In this document: positions 8,112 to 61,262 of the stretch, piece after piece
How the letters are laid out: the number at the start of each line of letters is the position of its first letter
How positions within the stretch are numbered: position 1 is the first letter of the stretch
Assembly: GCA_963575745.1 (NCBI GenBank)
Contig: CAUYUJ010000026.1
Location: 372,001 to 436,000 of the forward strand
Source: Prorocentrum cordatum
Taxonomy: Eukaryota
Direction: 5' to 3'
DNA length: 64,000 nucleotides
Translations under genes and position numbers: made by a program
The notes under the pieces: model-generated
What the model saw: the letters and a program-made list of their open reading frames with translations, nothing else
Databases searched by the model: none
Told to the model about the DNA's origin: nothing

Positions 8112-8112
8112 G

Positions 8113-9603: not shown

Positions 9604-9667
<64 letters not shown>

Positions 9668-9964: not shown

Positions 9965-10013
<49 letters not shown>

Positions 10014-10672
10014 GTGCTTTCACTCTGGCGGCGACGACTACGTTTACCACTACTACTACCACTACCATTACTATCACGACTACTACTACTGCTATCACTA
10101 TTACTGTCACTACTGCTACTTCGACTAATACTTCTCTGCTAGTGTTGCTTTTATTGATCTTACGACTACTACGACTACTACTACGACGACGACGACCTTT
10201 ATTATTACGGCTATTACGATTACGACTACCACGACTACGGCCTTTAACACGACTACGTCTACGACTTTTACAAGGGCTGTTATTTTTTCATTGCTGTTAC
10301 TACTGCGACTTCTGTTAATCGTATTTTTCGCATTGCTGTTGCGACTACTACTGTTACTACCACTACTACTATTACTACTACGACTACTAGGATTACTACT
10401 ACTACGACTACTACTACTACTAGCACGGCTACGACTACTACTATTTCTTCTTTGAGTCTTACTACTATTATGAAGACTACTACTACTACTACGACTACTA
10501 CAACTACCACTCCTACTCATATTACGACTACTACTACTACGACCATTACTACTCTTATTCCTACTAATACTACTATTACGAGTATTAGTATTACTAGTAG
10601 TAGGAGTGGTTGTTGTTGTGATACTGCCACGTCTACTACCGCTACTAGTACCACTACTACTACTACTACTAT

Positions 10673-10734
<62 letters not shown>

Positions 10735-11208
10735 TTTACCATTACTGCTAGTACTATTTCTATTGCTACTACTACTGGTACTACTACTACTAATAATACG
10801 ACTACTACTGCTACTACTACTACTACTATTTCTATTGCTACTACTACTACCACTACTACTACTACGACGACTACGACTACTACGACTACTACTCGTATGA
10901 GTAGTATTAGTAGTAGTAGTTGTTGTAGTAGTAGTAGTAGTCGTAGTAGTAGTAAAAGTTTCAGTCGTAGTTGTTGTTGTTGTACCACTGCTGCGGCTAC
11001 TACCACTAGTAGTAGTAGTAGTATTAGTAGTAGTAGTAGTAGTAGTAGTAGTTGTAGTAATGCTCGTAGTAGTAGTAGTAGTAGTAGTCGTCGTCGTAGA
11101 AGTAGTACTACTACGACTACAATTACTACCACTACTACTACGACTTCTACTTTTACGGCTACTACGATTGGTATCACTTTGTTACCACTATTACTACTAC
11201 TACTACTC

Positions 11209-44918: not shown

Positions 44919-45164
44919 CAGCAGGTCTGGCCAGGTGCCTGTCAGCTATCTGCCATACGCAGCATCCTGAATAGATTTTGGTGGTCATTCGGAATGGGGG
45001 GCCCCAGATATCTCTGAAAGGGATCTTGCGAACATTCGGACCGCGGGGATCCCGGGTAGTTTCCAAGAAAGGGTTCCTCGAAGAGTCGAAACGGAAGTTA
45101 CCCGGACAATGTCTTCTGACCAGTGGTCCCCGTATGCCCCCAGACCAGGAGGATACATGTTAAG

Positions 45165-45402
45165 GGTAGCTCTTTGGGAGACGTTATATAGGATCGGGAG
45201 TATAGCTCGCGCGCCGTTGCCTTTGGCTCAAGGCACGCGCGCCCTATTTGCCCGGACACTGCTTGTGTTCGCTATGTGTTGGAAAGATCATTACTCCGTC
45301 CACTCCCCATACTGAACTACCCCAGCATGGCATTGGACGCTATCTGCCATCCGCTTCCCATGGAATCGGATGCTATTTGACTTGCCACAGTCATTTCAGA
45401 CT
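45165..45402 (+). repeat. 5' LTR
   Basis: Aligns to 61005-61262 with 8 substitutions and one 20-bp indel, counted by eye. The outer end may extend to TG at 45158. Confidence 0.93.
45185..45232 (+). promoter_or_regulatory. TATA-like box (TATATA, 45185-45190) and DinoSL-like sequence (45213-45232) in the LTR
   Basis: GCCGTTGCCTTTGGCTCAAG differs from DCCGTAGCCATTTTGGCTCAAG by 1 substitution and a 2-nt deletion. Identical in the 3' LTR (61053-61072). Promoter function is inferred. Confidence 0.55.
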
Positions 45403-45417
45403 TGGTAGCGGAGCTGG
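45403..45417 (+). promoter_or_regulatory. Primer-binding site, initiator tRNA-Met type
   Basis: TGGTAGCGGAGCTGG immediately after the 5' LTR. TGGTAGC is complementary to the ...GCUACCA 3' end typical of eukaryotic initiator tRNAs (compare Ty1 TGGTAGCG). Confidence 0.85.
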
Positions 45418-45808
45418 CCGCACTCTCGTGTGGTCAGCTCTTGCTCTTCTTATCCTCACGCTATCTGGCACGATCTTCGCGACCGACTACCACCCTGCGC
45501 CACCACTCCAACTACATTTACGAGGATCAATTCAAGAGCAAGAAGCAGCACGAGAGGCACGACGTCTAGACAACAACATTGGTACCATATACGCTTCATC
45601 ACTACGCTATTACCAACCGCTCGGCAACGAGCCAAAAACGCAGCACTTGAAGCAGAGGCGGGGAGACCCGCAAGATAACGCGCCTCGGAGACTTGACAAG
45701 GCGCTACCCCAGCGCGGCAACGCGCCTGATAACCACCCATATCTTCACAGCCTCGGGCTGGTTATCTTCGCCATCATATGGTTCGCGCTGGGGGCAGCAA
45801 TCGGACAC

Positions 45809-47130
45809 ATGCGCCGAGGAGACAACAGCACAGATGGGCAAACACATGGCCCATACTGGGACCCCCAAGGCAACGTACCTTTCCGCGAATACGTTTATGA
45901 GGTCAACGCGTGGCTCAACGTCACAAGCGGACGTATGACGCCACAGGCCCAAGCAGCCGCCATACAACGCGGCCTGGGTGGCCTAGCGAGGACACTCGCC
46001 ATGAGGGTACCACCTGACATTATAAACTACGGTGCGGACATCGACGGTGTCCACACCGACCCAGTAACCTACAGCATGTTCCTCTTAAGCATGAAGTCCG
46101 AACGCCTGGAAGATGAGCGCCAGCTCACTTCAGGCACACAGCTCATCGACTTTCATGTGCCTCACGGAGAACGAATCGATGTAACCCTCACTCGGTTCGA
46201 GATGGCCCGTCTTGGGGCACAGTCGGTGGGGCTTGACCTTCCCAACTTCCAACTGCTCACTACTATCCTATTCCGCGCCTTAGGCGTCGGCAACCAGCGA
46301 GCCATGCAACTCTTGCAGACACTCCACCACCAAATGCCCCGAACACAACAACAGTATGATGAGTTGTGCGAGAGGATGCGTTCGATAGGCCATTTGTCAG
46401 AACGGTCTCTTGGTAACATAGGATCAGTATTTGGAAGGGGAAGGGGAACTGGTAGTGGAAACTTCTATACTACCTTAACCACTGAAGCTCGGCCTGGCAA
46501 CGGGCCCTCAAACATATGGGCCGACGATCCTGGAGAGTCTACTGCCCTACTAACAGGGGGTCGATCACAACCAAGCTGGGCAACCAGCCCCCCTCCTAGA
46601 GAACCTCAACCACACCGTTCCCTACGGGGTGAAGCGGATCCCCTAAGCGACGGTGTATCCACCTACCTAGGTAATGACGATTTCGACTCCGGCACCGACA
46701 CCGACACCATATCATCAGATGGTATCGAACCCCTAGATTGGTCAGATATCATGCAGATGGAAGGTGACAATCAGCGTGCCGAACACTTGTTCTGGTTATC
46801 ACAACAGGCAAAGCGGAGGTGGAGGAGGTTCACACGAAAACCAGTGCGTCGTGTTAGGAGGAGGATACGGAGCAGCTTCAGAGGAAAAGGTAAAGGCAAC
46901 CGGGGTCGCCGTAGGTTGAATGGACGAGGCATCTCGGCCTTCCTCCAGAGGCTTTCAGATGATCAGTATGATGAGATATTTTTCGGTGGGAAGGCCGTGG
47001 AAAAGGCCGTAGAGACACCTCAGGCAAAGGTAAAGGTCGGCGGGGAAACCCGCGAGGTAGAGACGGCCAGATCTTAAAGTGCCATGAGTGCGATAGTACC
47101 GATCATCATGTAAAAGACTGTCCAGCGAAG
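45809..47130 (+). pseudogene. gag: Gag-like region with CCHC zinc knuckle (frameshift at ~46991)
   Basis: PYWDP...FREYVYEVNAW...GLGGLAR...GERIDVTLTRFE; KG-rich stretch; CHECDSTDHHVKDC (CX2CX4HX4C) at 47080-47121. First in-frame ATG at 45809. Confidence 0.8.
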
Positions 47131-49813
47131 GGGAACGGAAAGGGCAGATCGACCGAAGTCAATTTCGGCTCAAGTGAACCAGATATTGAATACCTGAGCC
47201 TCCAAGACTTTGAGGCCGTGGAACAGATATTTTTCACTTGGGCCAGCAGCGTGGACAACTTGGATGAGCTCCAGGCGTACGGCCATGGACTGTACGCGTA
47301 CTACCTCGAGTACCACCGCAGGTTCGTTCTCGGAAATATCGAGCTTACGCCTGTGGAGCATGAAACGCTGGGAAACCAGCCCTTATCTTTCTTCGACTGG
47401 ATGTTCGGTAACCCAGGCAACACCATGGCCTACGAGACCAGTGACGAGGATGTCACTGTTGAGGCCTCGCCTTCGGATGTTGACCACAACCTTCGACATC
47501 GAACCGACCTTATGCCTGGAAACAGGCCCTTTCCAGTATATCCTCCAAACTATGCTGATCTGATGGGATTAGAATCCCAAGCGTTCACCGTGGGCGTGCC
47601 AGGGGACCCATGCGCACCACCTGGCACGCTCGCACCAGGCGAGTACGGACCGCACACGACACTGCAGACTCTCATGCAGATGCACGCTGTACTGGTCGTA
47701 GCCTATCCCGAGAGCCAAGAGAGTGTCGAGAGTGGCCACATGATGCTACAAGACAACGATGCTTGTGACGACTCGGAGCTAGTGTTAGCGGCTCTTACTC
47801 TTATCGACAGCGTGCACCCTGAGGACGTGCAGCGACATGCGTGGTATTCCAGAGGGAGATGGCGCCAAGCCCTTGAAAGGGCCATCTCCATGCGCGGTCA
47901 GGCTCTCCCTCCGCCGGGATGGGGTCTCCAGGCGGCGGGGCTACAGCCTAACCATGCGGCCGTGCGAAATATTATCGGGCAGCCTACGCTCGGTAACGAG
48001 CCTGAGCCGACTACCGTGCCGCCGACGCCGGGACAGCCAAGCGATGCTCAGACGCTTGTACAGCAGGGAAACCTGCCCGTCCCGGCTGGACCGATGACCG
48101 TCGTCATCGGCAATCCTATGTCAGAAGATGAAGAGGATGATGAATGTGGGATGTGCGAGGACGAGACCACCATTTTCATGATGGAAGTCAATGGCGAAGA
48201 CGAGGAGGTGGATTTCAGTCCCGACAGTCCTGATGCACCACCACCGGCACAAGACCCAATCGTGCCGGACTCCAGTCAGCAGGGAAACCTGCGCGCTCAA
48301 GATGCGCCGCCTGCGGCCCAACAGGAACCCCCGCCGGTTCCTGCTCAGGCTGCGTCGGCGGCTTCATCTGACGAGCACGCCAGTAGGTCTCGCTCGCATC
48401 CACGCCTTAGGGAAGAACCTCACCCGCAAGCACGGCTCCCCCGCGAATGGAGGCAAGCAGGCCCAACAGAGCATGCCGTTCGGCGGGGGGGGTCAATTGC
48501 TCGCCTACAATGACCCTAGGCGTCAAACGGGTGAGCATTCTGCTTTTGGAAAAGGCAACCCAGCCTACAGAGATGCCCAAGGCAGGTCCTTACGGGGTGG
48601 CTACCAGCTCGCGACGAACATTCGTCGTCCTGAGATAGAGGCTGCACGGACGCAGCTGCGGAATGTCATTGCGGCACGCAAGCTATACAGACCCAACGCA
48701 GTCTGTGGGCCGTGCTCAGAGCCACTCCAGGAGCACAGGCCTGGCTGTCCTGTAGGGCTCAACGAGGGCTTGAGCCCGAATAGAGGCCGCACTCCTGCCA
48801 AGGAGGGTCATCCACCGTTGGTTCCGATGACTCAGGCAGAGATCGACGAGATCAACCGTCGTCGCGGAACCACGGCTCATAGGGGCCCTATGGCTGAGGA
48901 GGCCCAGCCTCCGAGGGGACCTGCGCCTATGACCCAGGAAGAAAAATATGCGCTTAATCGCCTTCCTGGAATGCGGGGAAACCCGCATGGCGTCTCCAGT
49001 CAGTCCCAACAGCCAGCGATGATGGATGACGATGAACAGAAGGCTCAGCGAGCCGCAGCAGATGCGGAGCGCAGGCGAGTGGCAGACGCACGCACGCACG
49101 AGGCAACTCGCCAAATTCTACTGGAGTCCCAAAAGATCTATATGAAGGGGACAAGGAACCCCCCACTCCAACCGAAGGCCAAGAGCGAATCGCCTGCGCC
49201 CAGGACGCCTTCGGGGGAGAGACAGAAAACGTCAGCCCGCTCAGAGGAACTTGGGTTAGATGTGCAGATGGAGATGCCTCGCTCTGAAACGCCGAGGTCA
49301 CCGACTAGAGCAACTCCGGCACAGAGACCCGACCCTAGGCAACAACCCCAGGATTCCGTGGAGATTCGTAGACGACCGCCTAGCCGTTGCGGCTATATCG
49401 CCGGCAAGGCCAAGGCTTTCGAGCGTGCAGGGTTTACCCCTACGCCGGCCTCGCCTGTGGCGGCACGCTCCAAGAGGTCTGAGGAAGGTGCTCTATCTAG
49501 GGGTACCTGGGCGCCTAAGATCAAGGGCAGCGCCAGCCGAGAGACGCTGCGGGGAAACCCGCCGGGCGCTGCAGCTGCAGCATCCTCCTCCTCAGGAGCC
49601 GCAGCCTCATCGGTGACAGAGGCTCCTTTGCGGGGAAACCCGCCCGAGGATAAGCTGCACCGCCAAGGGGGCACTTCCTTTACTAGCGGGAGTCAGGCTT
49701 TGATCAATGATCGACATGCCCTGCGGAATCTTCCACCGATGCGCTCGGTGGACGAGGCGTTCATGGAAAGCTGCAGGCAGAAAGGTATTGCCCCGAGAAA
49801 TAATCATACAGTC

Positions 49814-50570
49814 AAGCAGCTTAGTAAATGCCCGAACAAGATATGCAGACACGCGCCTGAAAAAAAAAACACACACAATGCCGTGTGGAGCCTTGAGACA
49901 TTCGACGATCATGATGGATGGATCAATCTCGACGAGCTCGTGCGCGAGTTTCCGCGGCACAACGGACGTACGAGACAGGACGGGCATAACCCCAGACTGG
50001 ATGAGGCCAAGATCATCGCCGAGACCTTCTACGGCAGAACGGTTGACCAGATGGCTGCCATCATGATGGCGATCGTTCACGTCCGCGAGCCGGACGGTGA
50101 GGAGAAGCAGCGTCTCCAGTTCAAGGTCTTGGTACGGGATTCGGGCAAATCCGACATATTCACCCGTGCCTCGCAAGGGCACTCGTGGACGCTCCAGGCC
50201 CCTTGGTCGTTGTACAAGTACATTGTACTACACGACAATCCTGCCGGGAGACCGGCCCCATACCCCGAGGTTGCCACGCATGGCACACGATGGACATCCT
50301 TTGAGGGCATCATGTGGTATGGCCTCTCTTGTCGTCAAGAACACAACACCAAGAAGAGAGGGACAGGCCGATCACACATCCACTTTGTTCCGGCGCTTCG
50401 TCGTCGCGGTGTGCAGAGTGGATGGGGCCCCGATTCCGAGATCGTTATCTTTGTGGACTGGCATCGAGCCCTGAAGGGCGGAATCGAATTTTGCTGGTCC
50501 GACAATGGGGTTCTCCTATCTGAAGGAAAAGACGGCATCATTGAGCCGTATTATATTTCACACGTGGAAG
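49814..50570 (+). CDS. kptA: Tpt1/KptA-family NAD+-dependent RNA 2'-phosphotransferase domain inside the retrotransposon polyprotein
   Basis: Motifs in family order, uninterrupted: LSK...RH (49847-49852), DGW, KQR, RASQGHS (50165-50185), HGT (50279-50287), I...GL, RSHIHF (50369), SG, IFVD...AL..GIEF..S.NGVLL.EG..G.I.P.Y. Confidence 0.9.
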
Positions 50571-52154
50571 AACTCTCCACGGGAAAGCAATGGCGGAACC
50601 CAGAATTTCTGGACAATCGCCTTGCACGCGTCTCCGCCGCCATAATGACGGCCCCGAACAGGTGGACTACTGTGGGTAGTGCTAGTGTCAAGCACAGATG
50701 GTCTCTTGACCGAGAGGCTAATGAGCCTCCTACGGTTCATGGTCAAAGAGAAATTGGGGACCATTACAGCCCAACAGTGCTGGGAAACCAGCCCGAGATC
50801 CACCAGATCCTTGTGATCAACGAGAGTGAGGCAGGAAGCGCGGCTCCAAGCCGTGCTCCAAGCCAAGGGCCTAGTGCCATATTTTGGCAGGTCCTCAGCA
50901 CCTCAGATCTGGATCAGATCGCGGCCGCTCTAAATCCTGAGCAGGTGGAACAGCTAGCGGACAGACTGTGCCAGCAAGACCCCTGGGCCGCAGGCCAAGA
51001 GCCATGTCCGCCATGGCGACGCGTAACCGTCAGGCCACGCAGGGAAACCCGCCCGTTAATTGTCTTAGACACGATATGCCCGAACCGCAGGGAGACCCGC
51101 AAACGTTCGGCCGCATCTTCGGAGAGCCTGCTCGATTTGAGCAGATGCCAGGGAGCCCCTCGCATAGCATGCACACACCGAGGGGCATGACCCCAGTGGC
51201 GACGCCACCAGCACAGTCTCCGTTTGGGACTCCTGGTCGCTCTGCCACGAATGGCACTCTCATGGAGCGGATCGCCGCGGCCAGAGCTGAGCATGGCACA
51301 GCTCTTCTGAACATGATGCCACCTGGCACGCCAACGAGTCTGCAGGGAAACCTGCCCGGCACTCCAACACACCACCGACCTTTTGCTGGCCAAACTACTG
51401 CTGCTGGAGTGCCTGACGACTACCGCGCAAGGGTGGCAGCTGCGGTACAACAGGTGCAGAGTCGCAACCTCCCCACCCAAGTGGTCAGAGGTGGAGGCCG
51501 GCCTGGTCCTGGGAGCCAGAGGGTCCGAACCCACGTGACCCTGCTCGGCAACGAGCCTTTATCCCGGCCTTCAATGCTCATCCGAGCATGGCTCAGGGCC
51601 AGAGGCCAGCGCCAGCACCAATGGATCCGCCACTGTACCCAGACGGGTCTAGAGTCCCGAACAGATTTGTTCGCGAGACGGCGGATCAATTTCATAGCTT
51701 CACGAATGTGCGCTGCAGTGACCAGTCCATGTATCCGAACATGGCCTTCATGCCCGCACCGACAACGCCAGAGGTGGCCGTCCAGCCTACTGCCCATTCG
51801 ATATCATCAGGCAGTAGTGGAGTACCAGACTACATCAGGCAGACGTACCACACTCAACAGGCGTGTTTTAGGAGCAGGCAGGCAGTACAGAGCGTACGTG
51901 ACCAAGCACGTGCAGCTGCACTTGAGGTCGTGAGGAACAGAGGCTCACCTATGCGAGGAAACTCGCCAGCTGTGTCGCCCGCAGCCTCCACAACGGCAGC
52001 TCCTCCAGCAGTGGTTGCCGTAGCGCCGGAGGTACTGGCGCCCGCAGGAGATCCTCCAGTTGTTTTCCTAGGCTCCGAAACAGTCCTGGAGCGGCAGCGG
52101 CGGGTATACCCTAGAGCGGCAGATGTGGAAATCTATGCTGGAATGGAAGACACC

Positions 52155-52313
52155 TGTGCGGTATGCCTCGAGGAGTTTCAGCCGAGGGAGAGCATTTACC
52201 GCTGGAGGTGCAACCACCTGTTCCACGAGGAGCGCTGGAACTCGAATGTGGTGGGCCATGTTGCTAATCAGCGAGAAGGAGACCCTCAGCAACCAGTACG
52301 TGCTATCTGCCGA
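52155..52313 (+). pseudogene. RING-H2 zinc finger (two Cys changed to Arg)
   Basis: CAVCLEEF...RCNHLFHEE(R)W...(R)AICR. Confidence 0.8.
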
Positions 52314-53204
52314 GCGCCAGGCATCATAGCGTCATCGTTTCCATGGGCCGGCTCCTATACTCAGGCCCCCGAACAGGCAGCGAGTGAGCTGCGGGAGTTA
52401 AGGAGCATGGTGGAGGAGATGACAGCCAGTATGCTGGACAGGCAGACAGCGCAGCCCCAGCAGCGGGGAAACCCGCCGGAGGAGGTGAGATCACCGATGG
52501 GGACGGGATACTTCGACCAACTTATCCCGATGACGGCGCCTCAGCAGGGAAACCTGCCTAACACTCCACCTGTGCCGATCCTTCCGACTCATTGCGAGCC
52601 TGGAGTCGGGCAGGTGGCTCCTCCGATGTCTCCCCAGAGTGGGGGTGGGGCCGAGCTGCCACTGGGCCCTGAACAGCTGCGAGAACTGCGTGTCTGCCAC
52701 TTCCAGACCCAGATGGACAATGCACACACTACGTTCATGTTGGACGCCAATAATCCTGAGACTGAGAACTCGTCGTTGGATCTCTCAGACTCATCAGTGG
52801 CCACAGCGGCAACAGCAGTCAGGGCCGTCGAGCTCTCAGCAACGAACAATGAGTTCGACGAGTGGTTGCATTACAGGGACCACCTTACGAATGAGGGGTT
52901 ACAGGACATCTCCCTTCATTCGTACTTGACGCTGACGCGGCGTACTACCCGCGAACAGTACACGAGCATACGTGATGAGTATGCCCACTGGCAGGAGGAA
53001 CAGGGCGCCCAAGCCCAGAACGTGTCGTACTCCCAGTACATCGATCTGGCACGTATGGCCGCAGGAAGGCCAGGTGCCAGCACGATGCGGGGAAACCCGC
53101 CAAGAAGTACGACCGAACTGCGGGGAAACCCGCCAGACAGCACAGCCGGCACTTCAGAGACAGTGCACATCAAGCAGCCTAGTAAGACCTTTCTTGAGGA
53201 TGGT

Positions 53205-53645
53205 GGAAATTCAATCCTCATAGACGTGGGCTCGAAGATCAACATAATGGGAGAAAATACGAGCCGCAAGTTCGTTCAGGCTGCTGAGGCACATACTCGT
53301 CCTTGTACGTTTGAACCTCGCTCTCGTTTAAACATCAACGGGGTAGGCGAGGGGTCGGCCCCGGCTGATACCGTGGGCACCTTCAGCATTGCCTGCGAGT
53401 ACCAGGGTTCGACCCAGCTCGACTCGTACAAGACAAAAATTGTGTCAGGCTGTGGCAAGGACCTGCCAGCTATCCTGGGCCTCGACAGTACGCAGGACAA
53501 ACTCATTATTATTGTGCTCGAACGAGGCCAGGAGAAGCTGAGATTCCCTGGGAAGGGACAGGTCAAGATGGAACTCCCCGAGGGCTCCAAGATCATGCCA
53601 ACAACGAAGTTGCCATCAGGGCATCTGTCAATCAGGTGTGATCGA
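53205..53645 (+). pseudogene. pol: Retropepsin-like aspartic protease
   Basis: ILIDVGSKINIMG (catalytic Asp at 53223), flap-like INGVGEG, C-terminal LPAILGLD. Confidence 0.8.
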
Positions 53646-54211
53646 CTCTGAGCCGCGGGGCAACCCGCCTCGAGCACAAGTACCACATCGTTCCAGACGG
53701 TGCTGACAGGCGAGCCGACCCCTGCGCAAGAGCGCCAACAATTGCAGGGGAACCTGCCTCATGGGGTTGCTCGAGACACTCGCCAAAGCGACGGACGATG
53801 AGCGGCGACAGCATCGATGATCTGGAGACGTTCGATTGCTTCGTAGCCAGGACAATGGCCCAGCATGGTGGACTTGTACCCATGGATGCTGCACGGCCCC
53901 GCCGGAAGATAGTGATGGGATACTCGAGTCATGAGCTGCAGACGGTTAACGACGCAAGGTCGAAAGGCCTATTGAAGCAGCTGATGGACAATCCATCCAT
54001 GCTGGCTGCGTTTGCAGAGCAATCCGCCTCTGAGGCTACCGCGCGCTGCAGTGCTGAGCTCCAGCATCTGAGGGAAGCCCAGATGCTGGCAGACGTTGCA
54101 GGCGCATCTTCTTTATCTTGAAGATGGCAGGGCGACGCTGCCCCCTCGCCGCCTTGCCTAATGACCGATAGGCCAGGGGGTAACAAGGACAGCGGGGCAA
54201 CCTGCCATAGT

Positions 54212-54778
54212 AAAAGAGCTTTCGTCATCGAAGATACGAGAGAGGCTTGCGCCGACCTCCGCACCCGAGGTTATATCTGTGATCGCATTTCCCACAATGA
54301 ACTTATGACGACTGTGGGCACATATTACCTGGGTGCGGTGATCAGTGGGGACTACACTCTAATATGGGTCAGTACCCCGGGTGACTGGCATGCACGAACC
54401 CCAGGAAAGAGGATAGCCCCACACTGGTCTCGTATTCAAAACCTTCTGACAAAAGCCAAGAAGCTCCGCGTGGAAATCATAGTGTGTGGCCCTCCGGGAT
54501 ACGTTTGGAAGTTATCCCCAAGACGTGATACTCTGGAAGATCTCAAGTTGACGGTAGTAAGAATGCGGTTGTGTCATTTCGGTATCAGGTTTAGTATGCA
54601 AGACAATACACCGAGTGGTACCTATATGCAGGTAGCCACATCAATACCGATTAGTTCTAAGTTGTGGGCATGTGCGTGCAAACTGGCGATGCCACAACAT
54701 GTGTTGGATTGGTACGGTCAAACGGTGCGACATGCCGAATGGAGAGCTCAGACACGCATCGCACTCATCCGTCACCTC
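54212..54778 (+). pseudogene. Divergent first copy of a methyltransferase-like domain
   Basis: Collinear with 55511-56134: LIWVSTP, IIVCGPPGYVW, VRMRLCHFGI, MQVATS, CAC...QH. No recognisable SAM-binding loop or catalytic Cys. Confidence 0.45.
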
Positions 54779-55510
54779 AACGACAAAGTCCTGGGCAGCA
54801 ACACTACGCACGGAAACGTGCCGATATATTTGAACACATATACACGTACGGATCACAACATTCCTCACTATGTGACGACCAACAAAGGAGGACTGAAATG
54901 GCCTGATGTCATCCGACGTGTAATAATCAACCTGGATACGAACACGGTTATACAGGATATCGCAGTAGCCGATCAACCAACAGGATATGATTGGCATGCA
55001 CCACTACCTACAGGGGTTGCCAACATCAGTACACGGATGTACTGGCAGCCCGAGGAACCGGTCATGCTCGGAAACGAGCCTACTCAATCACCACAGAAAC
55101 CTAGACGCGTCATCATAGATGACTGTCCTTCTCCCCTCCCGACTCTGGAGATTGAAGCATGTGCCCACTCATCAGCGACGATGGGCACACAGACCGGTGA
55201 ACAAGACGAGCAAGTCTTACCTACGGTGTCGCGTATCAAACAGAAGGTAAGGCTCAAAGCCGAAAAGGAAGCAGGCGTCAAGCCTCGCCGCATCAAAAAG
55301 CACGTTGAAGACGGAAACGATGATTGCGGTGACGACTTGTCGGGACTCGGACAGGATCTTATGGCGACCTGGAGCACTTACGTCCCTGTTGAGCTGATAA
55401 GCTCAGATGAGGGTGATGACCTGTTCCTTACCCTCCTCACATCTATGCCCGACCCACGCGCTGACATATATAGCATAGTAGCTACTCTATGCTATGGTCA
55501 CAATAATTGC

Positions 55511-56134
55511 GTGCATATGTTGGAGCTTTGTGGAGGTGAGGGTGGTATTTCAGAGCTTGCCTTCTCAAGGGGTCTTTCCTCAGGAGGCAACTTAGACAAG
55601 ACCACATGTGTCGACCTGGAAGATCCCTCGGTGCAGCGAGCTGTAGATCATTACTTCGCAGTATGCCACGTACGAGTAGCCATGCTACAGCCCAGTTGTC
55701 GCACCACAGGACCACCATCCTACTACAACTACAAAGTCAACCGCAGCACTTCGGAACAACATCCTAAATAAGATTTGCCACACATAACTTATTGTGGCAA
55801 GATAGCTGTTACTCAAGAGAATGCGCGGAGGTGGTTTATACGCGAACAACCCACAGGAACATGGGTGGATGATATTTCCCCATGGAAAGAACTTGCCAAC
55901 CGACCACGTATCACAACCGTACACATCGACCAATGTGCGACGGGACTCAAAGATACGGCTGGCGACTATATCAAGAAACCGACAAATATCACCAGCAACG
56001 ACGAGACGATTCTTAAACCTTTTGAGCGACTCAAATGCAACGGTCAGCATGTGCACGCACAACCGTGCAACAGGGAGCTTTCAATGACACAAAAATACAC
56101 TCGACGACTGCAGCCCGCCTTTGTGGAAGCTGTT
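55511..56134 (+). pseudogene. Cytosine-5 DNA methyltransferase-like domain (in-frame TAA at 55769-55771)
   Basis: Motif I-like MLELCGGEGG, motif IV-like LQPSC (55688-55699), motif VI-like FIREQP, then IDQCATGL...KKPT. The order matches C5-MTases but the motifs are non-canonical. Confidence 0.6.
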
Positions 56135-56924
56135 TACTTGGCGAAAGCCATTGACACCACGCGCGGAGACGCGCCTACACGCACTGCGCGTGCTTACCCT
56201 GCTGACCTTCCTGATCAAGCTGAACCAGGAAGAGGTGCGAGACGCATCGGCGATCGCATCATCCCAAAAGTGGCTACATGCCCAGCATGCATCGACAATG
56301 TCCGAAAGGACAGTCCCAGCCACAACAGAGATCCTACACAGTGTAAGTATCATGATTCTATCTCTGTATATTGGCCATGTCCTGCATGCCAAAGGGACCT
56401 TACGATAAGCAAGGGCGTTAAGAACCGCCTCGACACTGAGCCCGGCAAACGCCGTTTTGCTGAGCCGTTCAAACTCCCAGATGATCATGATCCCGAGGGC
56501 AACAATGTGCCAGCTCGGTGGAAACCCTTGCCCAAGCCTGGGGAGGGCCACGCTTCAGCATCGGGCGGCCGTCAGGGCGCTCACGCCGGGCCACCGCGAC
56601 CACGAGCCTTTGGGAACACTGATCCTACATCTGGCGCCAGCAGTTACGATATACTGCGAGACGCGCCCGAGCGTGGAAACACGCCTTCCGCGTCTTCAGG
56701 CGAGCCGCCACAAGTAGCGGCCCGCCGTGGTCGCCTACAAGGCGTACCACCACCACCAGATGCAGTTGACGAAGGAGACCGACTGCGCAGAGCCACAAGG
56801 AACCCTCTTGCCTCAACCGGCTCGGGGGCTCCACGACTGCCCGACTGGACGAGATTTGACATCCAACGCAGTCGGCAAAACCTCCGTAGTCACGAACCTC
56901 ACGTAGTCAAAAAGGACCTCCGTA

Positions 56925-57900
56925 AATTGCACTTGCGGTGGTACCATGCGAAGGAACCCAAGATGAGGCTGATCCTAGACAAAGTGGGACTGGACAACGT
57001 TCGACTAAATATGATCAAAGAAATCTGTGACACATGTTTGGGAATGTAGAGCATGGGAACGCCCAGGTAATTCTACGCTACCCTCCGTGAGCCTCCCTGG
57101 AAATTGGCTTGACGAATGTGAAGTAGATCTCATGTTTTACAAGAAACGAACCATATTTCATATTATGGACCGATGTATCCGCCTGGCAGCAGGCCAAGAG
57201 ATTCCTGATAGAGAACGTGACACTATACTCGACGCCTACCACTACTGCTGGATTGCCTATCATGGACCCTTCAAAGTCTTGTATTCAGATGGAGAAGGCG
57301 CCCTCAACAATGACACTGCCAATGCCATGATGGCGAACAAGGGTGCGACACTTCGTATCCGAGCGCCTGGCCAACGCGCGACCTCGATCGAGTCACGCAA
57401 CGGCATTCTTAGGGGCACCCTCCATATGATCGAGGAAGAGCTGAATAGACACAACATCCCCGTTGTATTCACTAGAGTGTTGGCTGAAGGCATCTTCGTC
57501 ACTAACGCTTTCACGTTTTACAACGGAGTATCGCCATACCAAGCACGCACTGGGCGACAGCCCTCCTTTCTTCCTGACCTCGACACCCTTGACTTCCTCA
57601 GGGGGGCCGAGACGTCAGGCCACGAACGGGAGCGCCGCGTGAGGGAAGTTAGCCTGGACGCAATAACACAAGCCACGGCGGTAGCTAAGACAAATCGTGC
57701 TCTCAGGGCTAAGACGGCCCCAGATGGTGCTCGCCTTTACTCAGCAGGGGACTTGGTCGACTATCACCGACCTACAGCCACTAAGGACGACCATGGAGGC
57801 TGGAATGGCCCGTTTCCTGTGATCCGTAACGTGCCTGAACGAGGACACGTCGTCGTCAAGGCAGGATCACGTGAGGTAATTGTAATGCACCCTGATGCTC
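56925..57900 (+). pseudogene. pol: Integrase: HHCC, DDE core and C-terminal GPF region (frameshift at ~57038)
   Basis: LHLRWYH...CDTC/xEC; EVDLMF, YSDGEGA, SIESRNGILR; GVSPYQARTGRQP; GGWNGPFPV. Confidence 0.92.
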
Positions 57901-58939
57901 GACACACGCTATATATTGAATGCCTCCTTACCAGGGAACTTGGCATGGACAACATGGCCATGCAAACCGTCCTTACATATGTGGCACACCTTGGTGCAGG
58001 GAAACCTGCCACAGTCTTTGGCTGTATACCAGATTACAAGGGAAACCTCAATCTGCCGGACGACAGCAAGTTCCACCCGCGCGTGCACCTTGCACTACAG
58101 TATCTCGTGCGAAATTATTTCCGAGTTGAACGCGTAGTAGCCGTGAGACTGGCCAGGAGCGTGTCTAGTCTACCTGCATTTCAGTACGCCACCGGGTCTA
58201 CACTGATCCACTACGACAACGACGTCAACCCAGCCTTCCACTACTATGAGTGTGTGGGCACCGGCTTGAACATCTCCCAAATCACTGGTAGCACTCACTC
58301 CAGACTCATCCAGTGCCTGACGTCACATGTTCCTTCCCTAGCATTTCATGACGACCTTGCCACACATCAGCACTTGAGCACAACATCTGGAGAACATGAC
58401 CAGCCTGGAGACAGGCCTCCACCAGACACCCCAGGTGCTTCATCACCAAGTGAAGGTCGCCTGTCTACAATCTACAAAGAAAACGAGGAACATGACATCG
58501 AGGCTATGGTGATGGAGGAGTGGTACGACGAACTACGTATGGACCTTCATCCCACAACGGTTACCGACGACCATCTCTACTGCGTCCCAACAACCATGCT
58601 GCCCGACCAATGTGTTCTGGTCTCAGCATCCGTGGACGAGGAAGATATCATAGTGTCGGAAACGCTCGGAGACGAGCCTGAACCACAAGAGCCCTGTCTT
58701 ATCTCTCTATGCTCGACTACATCTGACGAGAGCTATTCTCTTGACAGTGATGAACATGGTCCTCATGTTGAGTTATGTTTCACACCAGAAATGTCAAAGG
58801 TAGTGTTGGACCAGACCCAACTTGCACAGCTTGAAACTGACATGGTCACAACGATCAGAGTATATGTATCATCGGCTGCTAAACGTGCTGTGGTAGTCAA
58901 GGAAGACGACCTACTCACCAAAGCCGATATAGCAGCACA

Positions 58940-59990
58940 CCCTAAAGAGGTTAGTGAAGCTTTGTGCACCGAACTCAAGATCTGGCTTGATAACCGGTGC
59001 TTCGATATGTATGACCTATCTAAAGCTTCCAACATCATGACATCCAGCTATGTATACAAGTGGAAGTTTGCGAAGGTAGGCACCGAGAATGTTAAAACCA
59101 TCCGTCTCAGACTTGTCCTTCGTGGATTCATGGACACGGAGGCGTTTGATGTAGAAACCTTCTCAGGAACTGCTCGAAGACAGCCCCAGAGGCTCCTGGC
59201 AAGTGAGGCGGCATGCCATCCATAATGGATCTTAGCATCTATGGATATCGACAAAGCGTTCCTCAAAGGTCTGAACTATGAGGAACTTGCTCATGCCACC
59301 GGCGAGGAAACTCGCATGGTTTGCTTCGCTCTTCCACCAGGAAGCGCCCAGGTGCTTCGTGCACTACTTGGCTTCTCTTCTTACGATGAAAGCCGACACT
59401 GCCTCAGGTGCCTCAAGCCAGGGACGGGTACAGAGGACGCCCCAAGAGCGTTCTCCCTCAAGCTTCGTACGACCACACGAGCGAAAGGCCTCGCACCGAC
59501 CAGTTACGATCCTGAGTTTGAATTCAGTCAAGATCTGTTAACGGCAAAACATGTCGATGATATCAACATGACAGGCCTAGAGAAAACTGCAGATGACTAT
59601 GTACAACGTGTCGAAAAAGTGGTTGGTAAATGCAAGCTCAACAAACATTCTTATACGAACCGCGCCGTTCGCTACACCAAGAATGAACAAGGGGATGTGA
59701 TCATGGACCAGGACGAGTACATTAAACAATTACGTCCTATCACGCACCCTGAACTTACGGGAGCGGCGGCTGACGCCAAAGCTACCAAACTCATCACCGA
59801 CATGTTCGTTAGCCTGCGAGGAGCTCTCGCCTATGCCCTTCTTACCCAAGTCTGGCTTATGGTGCATGTAGTCTCACTCCAGAAGATCCAAGAGCCCACC
59901 ATCTTACAAGTCAGACGACTGAATGCTGTGGCGCGGAAGCTGATCAGCAGCCCGGAACGCATCGCCTTCCCTCGGATGAAACCGGCGAAC
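58940..59990 (+). pseudogene. pol: Copia-type reverse transcriptase (in-frame TAA at 59223-59225)
   Basis: YVYKWK...RLRLVLRGFMD, MDIDKAFLKG, LKPGTGTEDAPRAF, HVDD (59550-59561), MDQDEYI, SLRGALAY. Confidence 0.95.
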
Positions 59991-59993
59991 TAA

Positions 59994-60640
59994 GTAGACA
60001 TACACAGTACTTCGGGGTATCGGAAGCTCACCGGTGAGGAAGACGATGAGACCAAAGGCTACGGCATCCGTGGGGCTAACGTATTGCGGCGAGGAAACTC
60101 GCCTCAAGGCAAATCCGTCATCCACCTTTGCGACGGACTATGCGAATCACACCGATTGCAGGTGAGGTCCAGCTATGCCGCTGAGGCCCTTGCAGCTGCA
60201 CACAACCTTGATGAATGCTACCCCACGCTCATCACTCTCCACGAGCTCAAGTTCAAGGCAGGGGCACTTACTCCACGACAGCTACGAGATATGCGTGAAG
60301 TTGGAGGCCTAGCCATTAAAGTATCACTTACTATAGACGCTGACTCTGTATACAAATCGCTATCCAGCAAAGATCTTAAGATACCGACGGAACGGATTTT
60401 GCTGGGACATATCAGCTGGATACGTGAGCTCATGGATATAGGTATAGTGCACAAAGTCACAACGTACGGTGGTGTGATGCTAGAGATATGACCGCAGATG
60501 GGCATACAAAGGGGAGTATCGATCGGGAGCTGCTGTTGGAAGTGATGTCAGGCACGCAGTCATTTAAGTATGCCGTGAAGCAGTTTGTTCCCTTTCGGGG
60601 TCCTGAGGACAGAAACGAGCCTAAGTCAAATCAGTTTTAG
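59994..60640 (+). pseudogene. pol: Copia-type RNase H (frameshift at ~60455; polyprotein stop TAG at 60638-60640)
   Basis: VRSSYAAEALAA, TIDADSVY, WIRE, WCDARDMTADGHTKG. Confidence 0.9.
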
Positions 60641-61004
60641 TCTGTCCTTGTTGCCCCGCGGTCCAGTCTGCCAGCACGGCGCCCTCCTAGTTGCTCGGAA
60701 ACGAGCCTTTTCACGCTTGGCAACGAGCCTGTTCAGATTGATTCCGGCTCTTTGCTTTAATACCCCTTTTGCTCGGGGAGGTATAGCCCGTTTGGCTTGC
60801 CTCTCGCCGGGCCGATAGCCCTTTGATGTCCAAGGGGCTATCTTGCGTATGCGTGAAAATGCTTTGCGAGGAAACTCGCCTTACAGTCTGGTGTTAGGCC
60901 AGACTGTACGCATTGTTTTTCTTGCAAACAGTCGTGCGCGCGGCATTTGTGGAGCCTAACGGCTGCGCGGCTATGCTCACCGTCTCCTCCCCTCCCGACT
61001 TTGA

Positions 61005-61262
61005 GGTCGCTCTTTGGGAGATGTTATATAGGATCGGGAGTGTAGCTCGCGCGCCGTTGCCTTTGGCTCAAGGCACGCGCGCCCTATTTGCCCGGGCGCT
61101 GCTTGTGTTCGCTATGTGCTGGAAAGATCACTACATCGATCTTATCCTATCTTATCCGTCCACTCCCCATACTGAACTACCCCAGCATGGCATTGGACGC
61201 TATCTGCCATCCGCTTCCCATGGAATCGGATGCTATTTGACTTACCACAGTCATTTCAGACT
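61005..61262 (+). repeat. 3' LTR
   Basis: Direct repeat of 45165-45402, followed by GATACA. Confidence 0.93.

What the first reader, a model, noticed from the sequence alone, without database searches (positions are those of the whole stretch)
45619..60879. At least 34 co-varying GNRA-tetraloop hairpins spread along the sense strand of the Copia element
Seen in sequence: the 14-mer GC-N-N-G-[GNRA]-C-N'-N'-GC, with N' complementary to N, occurs perfectly at 45619, 45658, 45712, 46575, 47040, 47367, 47514, 47988, 48063, 48279, 48973, 49549, 49630, 50779, 51342, 51543, 51953, 52463, 52544, 53087, 53120, 53655, 53744, 54808, 55066, 56161, 56671, 57996, 58403, 58664, 59302, 60089, 60693 and 60866. 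G.U or one-mismatch variants occur at 46492, 51039, 51087, 54192 and 60715. Nine different stems keep pairing (5' arms GCGGG, GCAGG, GCTCG, GCTGG, GCCTG, GCGAG, GCGCG, GCACG, GCGTG) and the loop stays GNRA (GAAA, GCAA, GAGA, GTAA, GGAA). The motif falls in all three codon phases and also after the polyprotein stop, so it is not a peptide repeat. I saw no antisense copies and no perfect copy elsewhere in the window. A rough equal-base expectation is about 0.01 per 16 kb. Established: GNRA tetraloops are stable RNA folds used for protein binding and tertiary contacts. Inference: a distributed cis-acting RNA code, such as multiple Gag packaging/condensation signals, export or antitermination sites, that could help handle a 16-kb genomic RNA. 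I know of no such array described for LTR retrotransposons.
Basis: partly seen in the sequence, partly recalled or inferred. Interest (0 to 1): 0.9.

Follow-up and report, generated by a model that had tools for sequence, protein, structure and literature searches.

The report
Hairpin barcode array in a retrotransposon
A 16-kb Copia-type retrotransposon carries about 43 copies of one tiny RNA hairpin written into the sense strand of its protein-coding sequence, kept by selection, and most likely used to mark its long RNA for a protein that binds it.

Summary
All copies lie on the + strand between two 240-260-nt LTRs (45165-45402, 61005-61262). Shuffles give 0.01-1.2. Of 40 sites picked without asking for pairing, 35 have both variable pairs Watson-Crick (P about 3e-37).

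It is a nucleic-acid signal, not a peptide repeat.

Relatives show selection:
- A 63%-identical element keeps hairpins at orthologous sites with compensatory stem changes.
- A conserved GEKER motif was rewritten to GEETR to create one hairpin.
- A sister lineage carries 8 copies of a different fixed version, with a 7-bp stem, a conserved C.A mismatch and a GNRA loop. Five of these map within 0-74 nt of window hairpins.
- More distant relatives lack the array.

Best reading (confidence 0.4): multivalent binding sites on the genomic RNA for an element protein, most likely the Gag arginine-rich/zinc-knuckle region. They would act as dispersed packaging or condensation signals. No RNA or binding data exist. 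The Copia type is supported, but the dinoflagellate host is likely and not settled.

The parts
45165..45402 (+). 5' LTR-like direct repeat
   Evidence: matches 61005-61262; 89% over 258 aligned columns, including a 20-nt indel
45404..45415 (+). primer-binding-site-like TGG... stretch directly after the 5' LTR
   Evidence: sequence; reading it as a PBS is inference from general knowledge of LTR elements
45619..45632 (+). hairpin, arm GCTCG, loop GCAA
45658..45671 (+). hairpin, arm GCGGG, loop GAGA
45712..45725 (+). hairpin, arm GCGCG, loop GCAA
45986..45999 (+). near copy, arm GCGAG, loop GACA (loop position 3 not R)
46492..46505 (+). near copy, arm GCCTG, loop GCAA, one U.G pair
46575..46588 (+). 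hairpin, arm GCTGG, loop GCAA (other codon phase)
47040..47053 (+). hairpin, arm GCGGG, loop GAAA
47367..47380 (+). hairpin, arm GCTGG, loop GAAA
   Evidence: peptide kept in 8 of 9 family fragments
47514..47527 (+). hairpin, arm GCCTG, loop GAAA
47988..48001 (+). hairpin, arm GCTCG, loop GTAA
48063..48076 (+). hairpin, arm GCAGG, loop GAAA
48279..48292 (+). hairpin, arm GCAGG, loop GAAA
48973..48986 (+). hairpin, arm GCGGG, loop GAAA
49098..49111 (+). near copy, first base A instead of G, loop GCAA
49549..49562 (+). hairpin, arm GCGGG, loop GAAA
49630..49643 (+). hairpin, arm GCGGG, loop GAAA
50779..50792 (+). hairpin, arm GCTGG, loop GAAA
51039..51052 (+). near copy, arm GCAGG, loop GAAA, one A.C mismatch
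51087..51100 (+). near copy, arm GCAGG, loop GAGA, one A.C mismatch
51342..51355 (+). hairpin, arm GCAGG, loop GAAA
51543..51556 (+). hairpin, arm GCTCG, loop GCAA
51953..51966 (+). hairpin, arm GCGAG, loop GAAA
52463..52476 (+). hairpin, arm GCGGG, loop GAAA
52544..52557 (+). hairpin, arm GCAGG, loop GAAA
53087..53100 (+). hairpin, arm GCGGG, loop GAAA
53120..53133 (+). hairpin, arm GCGGG, loop GAAA
53655..53668 (+). hairpin, arm GCGGG, loop GCAA (other codon phase)
53744..53757 (+). hairpin, arm GCAGG, loop GGAA (other codon phase)
54192..54205 (+). near copy, arm GCGGG, loop GCAA, one G.U pair
54808..54821 (+). hairpin, arm GCACG, loop GAAA
55066..55079 (+). hairpin, arm GCTCG, loop GAAA
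56161..56174 (+). hairpin, arm GCGCG, loop GAGA
   Evidence: an L013 hairpin maps 74 nt away
56671..56684 (+). hairpin, arm GCGTG, loop GAAA
   Evidence: an L013 hairpin maps 60 nt away; L002 has a hairpin in the same short variable stretch
57181..57194 (+). near copy, arm GCCTG, loop GCAG (last loop base not A)
57996..58009 (+). hairpin, arm GCAGG, loop GAAA, phase 0 (AGKPA); orthologous hairpin in L001 with a G.U pair
58403..58416 (+). hairpin, arm GCCTG, loop GAGA; orthologous to L013 hairpin 7575
58664..58677 (+). hairpin, arm GCTCG, loop GAGA; maps exactly onto L013 hairpin 7830; L001 has a hairpin with another stem a few codons away
59302..59315 (+). hairpin, arm GCGAG, loop GAAA, inside the RT; made by rewriting the conserved GEKER motif to GEETR
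60089..60102 (+). hairpin, arm GCGAG, loop GAAA; orthologous hairpin in L001 with a compensatory A-U to U-A change
60693..60706 (+). hairpin, arm GCTCG, loop GAAA, after the last long ORF of this copy
60715..60728 (+). near copy, arm GCTTG, loop GCAA, one U.G pair
60866..60879 (+). hairpin, arm GCGAG, loop GAAA, after the last long ORF of this copy
45752..46834 (+). Gag-like region (28% identical to the N-terminal part of relative P0019), followed by an arginine-rich stretch
47077..47130 (+). single CCHC-type zinc knuckle (weak Pfam matches, below cut-off)
50099..50527 (+). Tpt1/KptA RNA 2'-phosphotransferase domain inside the polyprotein
   Evidence: PF01885, E 5.5e-19, 69.3 bits
52149..52232 (+). 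RING finger
   Evidence: PF17123, 29.5 bits; also in relatives P0019 and L013
57042..60458 (+). integrase-like, RT (RVT_2) and RNase H-like part of the polyprotein; carries two in-frame stops in this copy
61005..61262 (+). 3' LTR-like direct repeat

Best explanation
The element's full-length sense transcript carries an array of about 43 small hairpins. Each has a 5-bp stem (G-C, C-G, two free pairs, G-C), a GNRA loop that is mostly GAAA, and a 3' C. The hairpins are written into the polyprotein ORF and its ends.

Selection acts on the fold and on the fixed bases, not on the encoded peptide. I propose that the hairpins are repeated, equivalent docking sites for an element-encoded RNA-binding protein. 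The most likely binder is the arginine-rich stretch plus CCHC knuckle at the C-terminus of Gag. Many Gag copies would then load along the whole 16-kb RNA, pick it out from cellular RNA and from other elements' RNA, and condense it into the particle. These would be dispersed packaging signals.

Shown: the array, its strand and element specificity, pairing covariation, conservation and turnover in relatives, the cost paid in protein sequence, and an alternative version of the hairpin in a sister lineage.

Inferred: that the acting molecule is RNA rather than single-stranded cDNA, that a protein reads the hairpins, that the protein is Gag, and that the outcome is packaging.
For: 1. Count and specificity. 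There are 35 perfect and 8 one-mismatch copies, all on the + strand and all between the LTRs. Shuffles give 0.01-1.18.

2. Pairing. Of 40 sites matching the fixed bases only, 35 have both free pairs Watson-Crick (P 3e-37), 3 have G.U and 2 have A.C. On alignment A3, 99.1% of 230 cells pair and 0 of 500 shuffles reach this value.

3. Not a peptide. Ten stems encode different peptides (LGNEP, RGNPP, QGNLP and others). Six to nine in-ORF copies sit in other phases, and 5 of 6 of these still have the 3' C. In L013 the same 18-mer is read in another phase in 2 of 8 copies.

4. Loop preference beyond codon usage. Loop position 2 is A in 28 of 35 copies, while GGA makes up 25% of Gly codons elsewhere.

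5. Orthologous conservation with compensatory change, window versus L001 (63% aa identity). At 60089 an A-U pair became U-A. At 58664 the free pairs differ on both sides (TC/GA against GA/TC). At 57996 an A-U pair became G.U.

6. Protein sequence was sacrificed. GEKER, conserved in L001, L002 and L013, became GEETR at 59302. AGKAP became AGKPA at 57996.

7. A sister lineage has its own version. L013 has 8 + strand copies and 0 antisense copies of a 7-bp-stem, GNRA-loop hairpin. Five mappable ones fall 0-74 nt from window hairpins (P 0.0004).

8. In intact relatives the imperfect pairs are G.U (3 of 3 in L001 and L002). These pair in RNA only on this strand.

9. Family fragments keep the hairpin-encoded residues better than the rest: 294 of 333 against 5752 of 7318, Fisher P 9e-6.

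10. Spacing is more even than random. The coefficient of variation (CV) of the gaps is 0.70 against 0.97 for random placement (P 0.006), and no gap exceeds 1.1 kb. This fits coverage of the whole RNA.

11. Gag has an arginine-rich run and a zinc knuckle.

12. The hairpins are predicted to form. Mean stem probability is 0.85, and 30 of 35 exceed 0.5. Free energies are -8 to -12 kcal/mol.
Against: - There is no RNA evidence and no binding evidence of any kind, so the binder is a guess.
- Relatives without hairpins (for example P0019) have a similar arginine-rich and knuckle region. The 150 more distant representatives show no excess of hairpin-compatible peptides (33 against 31.5 expected). The clade can therefore replicate without the array.
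- Native flanks do not raise the predicted folding above controls (0.85 against 0.80).
- The L013 version keeps a C.A mismatch in all 8 copies at a synonymous site where T would pair. A pure 'stable stem' model does not predict this.
- L001 has one antisense GNRA copy.
- The strong codon-phase lock is not explained by packaging itself.
- The window copy is dead, with frameshifts and in-frame stops. Its 8 decayed copies look neutral (3 G.U, 3 A.C).
Confidence: 0.4

Rival explanations
1. The hairpins are selected RNA structures, but they serve another step than packaging. Candidates are nuclear export or stability of a long unspliced RNA, protection from host RNA decay or silencing, control of translation of the roughly 5000-codon ORF, or recruitment of a host protein.
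For: All the evidence for selection on an RNA fold applies equally. Even spacing also fits a coat of host protein. The element encodes unusual RNA-related activities such as Tpt1, which hints at non-standard RNA handling.
Against: A 5-bp hairpin is too weak to stall ribosomes (free energies; the inference is mine). Export and stability elements known from retroelements are single, larger structures (recalled, not tested). Forty copies with strict fixed bases suggest a stoichiometric binder.
Confidence: 0.3
2. The array is mainly the product of a copying mechanism. An example would be template switching of reverse transcriptase at short homologies, pasting an existing hairpin over a similar site. 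It would spread like a selfish mini-cassette with little or no function.
For: At 59302 about 5-6 of 9 bases changed at once without any length change. The ancestral sequence already held the 5' arm, and the resulting 14-mer is identical to those at 51953, 60089 and 60866. L013's 8 copies share one 18-mer. Nine window copies share the arm GCGGG, and seven of them are identical 14-mers.
Against: Variation within L013 copies is confined to the two degenerate loop positions, which is not neutral drift. Orthologous hairpins persisted over about 37% protein divergence with compensatory changes. Hairpin residues are more conserved than their surroundings. There are no antisense copies in the window or in L013. 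A copying mechanism may explain how hairpins arise, but not why they are kept.
Confidence: 0.1
3. The acting molecule is single-stranded DNA. The hairpins would form in plus-strand cDNA and act in reverse transcription or integration.
For: Strand specificity alone cannot separate + strand RNA from + strand DNA. Small G-C-clamped GNA/GNRA-type DNA hairpins are known to be stable (recalled).
Against: G.U-type pairs in intact relatives (3 of 3) are weak in DNA. Plus-strand DNA is made on a minus-strand template and is hardly ever single-stranded (general knowledge). There are no hairpins in the LTRs, where the priming and transfer steps happen.
Confidence: 0.07
4. The GAAA loops make RNA-RNA tertiary contacts (tetraloop-receptor type) that compact the genomic RNA without any protein.
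For: GAAA dominates the loops (23 of 35). GNRA loops are classic tertiary-contact modules (established knowledge).
Against: The two halves of the classic 11-nt GAAA receptor are not enriched on the + strand: 3 against 4.2 expected, and 13 against 10.9. No second over-represented motif remains after masking the hairpins.
Confidence: 0.05
5. The functional unit is the encoded peptide (x-G-N/D-x-P, or PG[ND]RI in L013), for example a repeated cleavage or docking motif. The hairpin would be incidental.
For: 24-27 of 33 copies share one codon phase. G, N/D and P are nearly constant. Six of 8 L013 copies encode [GD]PG[ND]R[IV].
Against: Perfect nucleotide complementarity across ten different stems is not needed for a peptide. 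A synonymous shuffle that keeps the protein gives 1.18 against 33 observed. Out-of-phase and non-coding copies keep the nucleotide motif. Synonymous positions are constrained: the stem third positions, and loop position 2 being A.
Confidence: 0.03

Closest known systems
Dispersed packaging signals of single-stranded RNA viruses (MS2, STNV, picornaviruses, HBV pgRNA; Twarock and Stockley model; PMC6281560, passages read)
   Same: Many stem-loops are spread along a genome, often inside coding sequence. They share a loop recognition motif while the stems vary, and they are proposed to bind coat protein cooperatively.
   Different: The viral signals are degenerate and were found statistically or by SELEX. 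Here the motif is crisp, with 11 constrained positions in 35 perfect copies. It is phase-locked to the ORF and sits in an LTR retrotransposon. No binding has been shown.
Retroviral psi elements bound by the nucleocapsid zinc knuckles (recalled knowledge, not tested here)
   Same: Both involve a Gag-derived basic or zinc-knuckle domain and small G-containing tetraloop hairpins on the genomic RNA.
   Different: Psi is one compact 5' leader structure with a few loops of GGNG type. Here there are about 43 GNRA hairpins over 15 kb, mostly inside the ORF.
Phage lambda/P22 boxB hairpin bound by the arginine-rich N peptide (recalled knowledge)
   Same: Both have a 5-bp stem with a GNRA-like loop read by an arginine-rich peptide. 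This shows that such a small hairpin can be a specific protein site.
   Different: boxB has a pentaloop, is present once or twice per operon, and acts in antitermination. There is no homology.
Strand-specific genomic self-tags such as Chi, KOPS or DNA uptake sequences in bacteria (recalled knowledge)
   Same: A short motif is heavily over-represented on one strand of a replicon and embedded in coding sequence at a cost to codon choice. It serves as an identity or polarity mark for a protein machine.
   Different: Those are double-stranded DNA words without secondary structure. Here the mark is a fold, with covarying stems.
In-frame palindromic insertions such as Rickettsia palindromic elements (recalled knowledge)
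   Same: Both are small palindromic units found inside ORFs without breaking the frame.
   Different: RPEs are 100-150-bp insertions scattered over many unrelated genes. Here three hairpins in conserved domains arose without any length change, and the motif is confined to one element.

Membership tests
Ty1/copia-type LTR retrotransposon | Flanking long terminal direct repeats | tested here: met
   45165-45402 and 61005-61262 match; 89% over 258 columns including a 20-nt indel. No target-site duplication was identified.
Ty1/copia-type LTR retrotransposon | RT of the RVT_2 (Copia) family | tested here: inconclusive
   The window copy, read through two stops with X, scores 25.1 bits against a cut-off of 31.6. 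Relative L001 (63% identical) scores 45.3 bits, P0019 and P0012 34.8, and P0009 33.0. The feature is met for the family but falls below threshold for this broken copy.
Ty1/copia-type LTR retrotransposon | Integrase encoded upstream of RT | tested here: met
   The integrase-like stretch lies at the start of 57015-60491, with the RT motifs downstream. In P0009 the rve match (20.5 bits, below cut-off) at residues 810-897 lies before RVT_2 at 1506-1706.
Ty1/copia-type LTR retrotransposon | Gag with nucleocapsid-type zinc knuckle | tested here: inconclusive
   zf-CCHC family matches score only 10-16 bits, below the cut-offs. A C-x2-C-x4-H-x4-C pattern is visible.
GNRA tetraloop hairpin | Four-base loop G-N-R-A closed by a Watson-Crick pair on a helical stem | tested here: met
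   35 of 35 copies by construction. In the unbiased set, 40 of 40 have the loop and 35 of 40 a fully paired stem. The structure is predicted as the MFE fold.
GNRA tetraloop hairpin | Sheared G.A pair and U-turn-like loop geometry | not testable with these tools
   This needs NMR, a crystal structure or chemical probing.
Dispersed packaging signals | Multiple stem-loops along the genome sharing one recognition motif, with variable stems | tested here: met
   43 sites, ten stems and a GNRA loop. Spacing is more even than random.
Dispersed packaging signals | Specific binding by the capsid or Gag protein, and an effect on assembly or packaging | not testable with these tools
   No tool here handles protein-RNA binding, and no RNA run holds the element.
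Mobile in-frame mini-insertion (RPE-like cassette) | The unit is an insertion relative to homologues that lack it | tested here: not met
   At 57996, 59302 and 60089 the homologues without the hairpin have the same, or nearly the same, length. In variable linkers (56671, 58403, 58664) indels make this undecidable.
Mobile in-frame mini-insertion (RPE-like cassette) | Scattered over unrelated genes of the genome | tested here: not met
   There are 0 copies in the other 48 kb of the window. In the 5.9-Mb bin G001 the unpaired pattern is at control level (97 against 103), and the L013 motif occurs only in contig C157. The host genome itself was not available.
Peptide repeat | Conservation is explained at the amino-acid level, with free synonymous sites | tested here: not met
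   as set out under the peptide rival explanation.

The most novel reading that the evidence does not exclude
The array is a heritable RNA 'barcode' that co-evolves with its reader protein. One lineage uses about 43 hairpins with free 5-bp stems and a 3' C. Its sister uses a fixed 7-bp stem with an obligatory C.A mismatch. More distant relatives have none. Sub-families of a high-copy retrotransposon would then package only RNAs bearing their own code. This would be a specificity system that stops competitors and defective copies from parasitising their particles. It would evolve by rewriting coding sequence, possibly by reverse-transcriptase template switching between hairpins.
Probability: 0.2. 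Interest if true: 0.88.

Novelty: new variant of a known kind. Interest (0 to 1): 0.78.

Why it matters
How LTR retrotransposons choose their own RNA is poorly understood outside yeast Ty elements and retroviruses. The question is sharpest for very long elements in genomes crowded with related copies.

This is an unusually clean natural case. A 15-nt structured word is repeated about 43 times, and its evolutionary history is readable. Hairpins were gained at the expense of conserved residues. Stems changed by compensation. A sister lineage has a different word. These features make the question directly testable with a handful of oligonucleotides and one recombinant protein.

If the packaging reading holds, the model of dispersed packaging signals would extend from small RNA viruses to retroelements. 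It would also offer a compact, portable tag for loading long RNAs into Gag-based particles.

I found no description of such an array in four literature searches (search listings only, apart from the papers read).

Tried and rejected
- Rfam at gathering thresholds gave 0 matches in the window.
- No whole genome is held for the window.
- Earlier findings of this scan gave nothing by place, words or sequence.
- No RNA holder was listed among 15 runs. Contigs of four DNA or unknown-type runs were laid. The family is very abundant there, but only 40 of more than 2,300 differences were shown and none fell in a perfect hairpin. The contigs themselves could not be read, so no family-level DNA alignment was possible.
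- The viral-contig scan found no relative.
- A word-based protein search with ORF 51417-53651 at near lengths gave nothing.
- PDB sequence searches with two ORFs and with P0009 gave nothing usable.
- Native flanks do not improve predicted hairpin formation: 0.85 against 0.80 and 0.80 in two controls.
- The classic GAAA receptor halves are not enriched, and no second over-represented word was found.
- There is no clustering of short gaps: 10 gaps under 100 nt against 10.1 expected.
- No lineage-specific repeated word was found in the more distant relatives L014, L005, L008 and L011.
- No other related element lies in the window.
- I first suspected that the hairpins might be 14-nt frame-shifting inserts or tiny introns. 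I rejected this because most lie inside long open frames and the unit is 15 nt in frame.
- A resemblance of 55.1-56.4 kb to cytosine methyltransferase motifs is recalled only. Pfam and PDB were silent.
- De Mendoza 2018 (PMC5890265, passages read) says that Symbiodinium Copia elements lack DNMT, and it does not mention hairpins.

Full report
**The observation.** A regular-expression scan for GC-NN-G / G-N-R-A / C-N'N'-GC, with N' complementary to N, finds 35 perfect copies on the + strand between 45619 and 60879. It finds none on the - strand and none in the other 48 kb of the window. Two-departure matches are at background, with 4 of 31 inside on + and 10 of 39 on -. The base after the 14-mer is C in 30 of 35 copies. 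Of the 60 perfect 5-bp/4-nt hairpins on the element's + strand, 37 have GNRA loops and 35 are of this one type. The - strand has 0 GNRA loops, and the rest of the window has 2 on each strand.

**Expected counts.** Mononucleotide shuffles give 0.01 (500 shuffles). First-order Markov simulations give 0.025 (200 runs). Permuting synonymous codons with the protein kept gives 1.18, maximum 5, against 33 observed in the ORF pieces (500 shuffles).

**The setting.** The array lies exactly between two direct repeats, 45165-45402 and 61005-61262. The first repeat is followed at once by a TGG-initiated stretch that looks like a primer-binding site (this reading is inference). The + strand between the repeats is a chain of long open frames with at least seven frame changes and four in-frame stops, so this copy is dead.

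Pfam finds a Tpt1/KptA RNA 2'-phosphotransferase domain (69 bits) and a RING finger, weak CCHC knuckle matches and RVT_2 at 25.1 bits, below the cut-off. An intact relative scores 45.3 bits for RVT_2. The integrase-like part precedes the RT. 'Copia-type LTR retrotransposon' therefore holds.

**The host.** The host is less certain.
- A flanking sulfatase exon has Prorocentrum cordatum as its best named homologue, at 54% identity.
- The LTR holds a stretch resembling the dinoflagellate spliced leader. My recalled search term occurs in 28 papers, and the five listed are on dinoflagellates (listing only).
- Against this, 103 of 104 short family protein fragments carry the EukProt name 'Pyramimonas sp.', a green alga.

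**Fold or peptide.** 24 of 33 in-ORF copies share one codon phase, or 27 of 33 if three copies in ORF overlaps are read in the frame that gives that phase. They encode x-[LRQHP]-G-[N/D]-x-P (P about 1e-7 for 26 or more of 33 in one given phase, observed up to 27). The signal is still nucleic-acid level, for five reasons.
- I picked sites by the nine fixed positions only. Of the resulting 40 sites, 35 have both free pairs Watson-Crick (binomial P 3e-37), 3 have one G.U and 2 have one A.C.
- On the 46-row alignment A3, 99.1% of 230 cells pair, with 0 of 500 shuffles as high. The covariation score is 0.51, against 0.09 for shuffles and 0.11 or less for slid registers. A3 holds the 40 window sites plus 6 sites from relatives. 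Those 6 were chosen allowing only Watson-Crick or G.U pairs, so they lean towards pairing.
- The ten stems encode different, chemically unrelated residue pairs.
- The out-of-phase copies keep the nucleotide motif, including the 3' C in 5 of 6.
- Loop position 2 is a synonymous site in the main phase. It is A in 28 of 35 copies, while GGA is only 25% of Gly codons elsewhere.

**Relatives found.** One JGI metagenome contig (L001, 4987 nt, intact ORF) is 63% identical in protein to the window's integrase-RT part. One contig of a genome bin labelled as a Rickettsiales bacterium (L002) is also a relative. That bin, G001, holds further contigs of such elements and so contains mis-binned eukaryotic DNA.

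A maximum-likelihood tree of 17 rows gives a 100/100 clade ((window, L001), (L002, (L013, P0003))). L005 is next and the other relatives lie far outside. L001 has four + strand hairpins, two of them with a G.U pair. L002 has two, one with a G.U pair.

**Evidence of selection at shared sites.** Three window hairpins have orthologous or near-orthologous hairpins in L001.
- At 60089 the free pair A-U is replaced by U-A, and the loop changes from GAAA to GCAA.
- At 58664 the two free pairs differ on both sides.
- At 57996 an A-U pair is a G.U pair in L001.

The codon alignment also shows what the hairpins cost. At 59302 the motif GEKER, identical in L001, L002 and L013, reads GEETR in the window. 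Five to six of nine bases changed and the length did not. At 57996, AGKAP in L013 is AGKPA in the window and L001.

In the 104 family fragments, the four residues fully encoded by each of six hairpins are identical to the window in 294 of 333 cases. At all other aligned positions the figure is 5752 of 7318 (Fisher P 9e-6).

**A second version of the word.** L013 (9.9 kb, two long intact frames) has no canonical 14-mer. A relaxed scan showed 8 + strand copies and 0 antisense copies of G-R-T-C-C-C-G / G-N-R-A / C-A-G-G-A-T-C. One of the 8 departs from this word by a single base in the 3' arm. The word forms a 7-bp stem with a C.A mismatch next to the closing G-C pair. The exact 15-nt core occurs 7 times in the 5.9-Mb bin, all in this contig and all forward, with 0 in the reversed-pattern control.

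Variation among the copies is confined, apart from that base, to the two degenerate loop positions and the G/A at stem position 2. Two of the 8 copies lie in another codon phase than the ORF, where the same letters are translated as VVPETGS. The hairpin is predicted to fold with a 1x1 internal loop at -5.8 to -7.3 kcal/mol.

Five of the 8 copies can be mapped onto the window through protein alignment. They fall 0, 4, 19, 60 and 74 nt from a window hairpin centre (P 0.0004 for all five within 74 nt). So the array is ancestral to this clade, its positions are roughly kept, and the word itself has diverged between lineages.

**Where the array stops.** Outside the clade the array is absent. L014, L005, L008, L010, L011 and L012 have none and no other repeated word. 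The 150 best of 4,679 representative relatives (107,755 residues) hold 33 hairpin-compatible peptides against 31.5 expected.

**Decay in this copy.** The two LTRs differ at a few percent of aligned positions apart from one indel. Eight of 43 hairpins carry one departure: 3 G.U, 3 A.C and 2 loop changes. That mix and number are what neutral decay after insertion would give. The estimate is my own arithmetic and not a tool result.

**Arrangement.** The number of short gaps is as random (10 against 10.1 expected). Overall, though, the gaps are more even than random. Their coefficient of variation (CV) is 0.70 against 0.97 (P 0.006), and the largest gap is 1095 nt over 15.3 kb. There are no hairpins in the LTRs.

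**Mechanism.** The evidence shows a sense-strand fold with fixed identity bases. It is kept and renewed by selection at a cost to the protein, it covers the whole internal region, and it diverges between sister lineages. The simplest agent that needs about 40 equivalent, sequence-and-shape-specific sites on one long RNA is a protein that coats or counts that RNA. Gag has an arginine-rich run followed by a zinc knuckle. From recalled knowledge, arginine-rich peptides read GNRA-like hairpins in phage boxB, and zinc knuckles read tetraloops in retroviral psi. I therefore favour dispersed packaging or condensation signals, as modelled for small RNA viruses (PMC6281560, passages read), at confidence 0.4.

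The main weaknesses are these.
- There are no RNA or binding data.
- Hairpin-free relatives have similar Gag tails.
- Flanks have no effect on predicted folding.
- The conserved C.A mismatch in L013 is unexplained.
- The phase lock is unexplained. It may reflect descent from one ancestral in-frame word, or tolerance of the turn-forming peptide G-N-x-P.

Other RNA-level roles (0.3), a copying by-product (0.1), a single-stranded DNA role (0.07), protein-free tertiary contacts (0.05; the receptor halves are not enriched) and a peptide motif (0.03) are ranked below.

**How hairpins arise.** Three hairpins in conserved domains arose by substitution without any length change, which argues against a simple inserted cassette. 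The 59302 case is suggestive. The ancestral sequence already held the 5' arm, and the new 14-mer is identical to three others in the element. Patch copying by template switching during reverse transcription is a plausible source. This is inference only.

**Known or new.** Four literature searches found nothing on such arrays (listings only). De Mendoza 2018 (passages) and a 2026 preprint on retrotransposon methyltransferases (passages) do not mention them. I file the finding as a new variant of a known kind, namely dispersed cis-acting RNA signals. It is unusually crisp and sits in a class of elements where none has been described.

Noticed in passing
window 45184-45245 (and the same part of the 3' LTR): The LTR holds a TATA-like word. 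It is followed by a stretch resembling the dinoflagellate spliced leader, bracketed by a GC-rich inverted repeat. The element's transcript might start with a built-in leader-like sequence.
   Followed up: partly
window 50099-50527: A Tpt1/KptA RNA 2'-phosphotransferase domain (PF01885, 69 bits) lies inside the retrotransposon polyprotein. Pfam does not detect it in the relatives L013, P0004, P0009, P0012 or P0019. It is an unusual cargo for an LTR element.
   Followed up: partly
window 52149-52232; L013 ORF1 residues 787-835; P0019 residues 884-936: A RING finger is a shared domain of this clade of Copia-type elements.
   Followed up: partly
window about 55100-56400: A conserved region upstream of the integrase is shared with many relatives (for example P0009 and P0019). 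Its motifs reminded me of SAM-dependent or C5 methyltransferases. Pfam and PDB sequence searches were silent, so the resemblance is recalled only.
   Followed up: partly
L013 (G001:C157) 537, 1499, 2970, 5512, 5914, 7576, 7831, 9275: All 8 hairpins of the sister lineage keep a C.A mismatch at a synonymous site where T would give a perfect 7-bp stem. A ninth site reads GPGHRI, with a broken loop. This is unexplained.
   Followed up: partly
L001 2493, 2682, 2694: L001 has one antisense GNRA hairpin of the canonical frame. It also has three sense hairpins with GCNNG stems but non-GNRA loops, all in the main codon phase. They may be relics or variants.
   Followed up: partly
proteins P0153-P0256: 103 of 104 short fragments of this element family carry the EukProt source name 'Pyramimonas sp.' (a green alga). 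The window's flanking sulfatase points instead to dinoflagellates. Either the host or that data set's label needs checking.
   Followed up: partly
G001 contigs C124, C157, C236, C256, C260, C284, C322, C350: A genome bin titled as an uncultured Rickettsiales bacterium contains at least eight contigs of eukaryotic Copia-type retrotransposons. These are mis-binned host DNA.
   Followed up: yes
window 34980-36236: A sulfatase exon (PF00884, 84.7 bits). A 99%-identical fragment exists in a JGI metagenome, and the best named homologues are from Prorocentrum cordatum (54%).
   Followed up: partly
window 17773-18528: There is a weak RVT_1 match (24.5 bits, below cut-off). It is probably the remnant of a different, non-Copia retroelement.
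   Followed up: no
window about 500-1100, 8000-11200 and 23400-26400: Long low-complexity arrays with 9/12/15-nt periodicity, low G+C (about 0.40) and extreme GC skew (-0.52 to +0.66).
   Followed up: no
window 22535-22634: A run of 100 N, which is an assembly gap.
   Followed up: no
window 45100-61300 in runs X1-X4: The element family is extremely abundant. Between 2,147 and 12,081 contig pieces per run were laid at 85% likeness or more, in four runs from four studies. Differences are dominated by transitions.
   Followed up: partly
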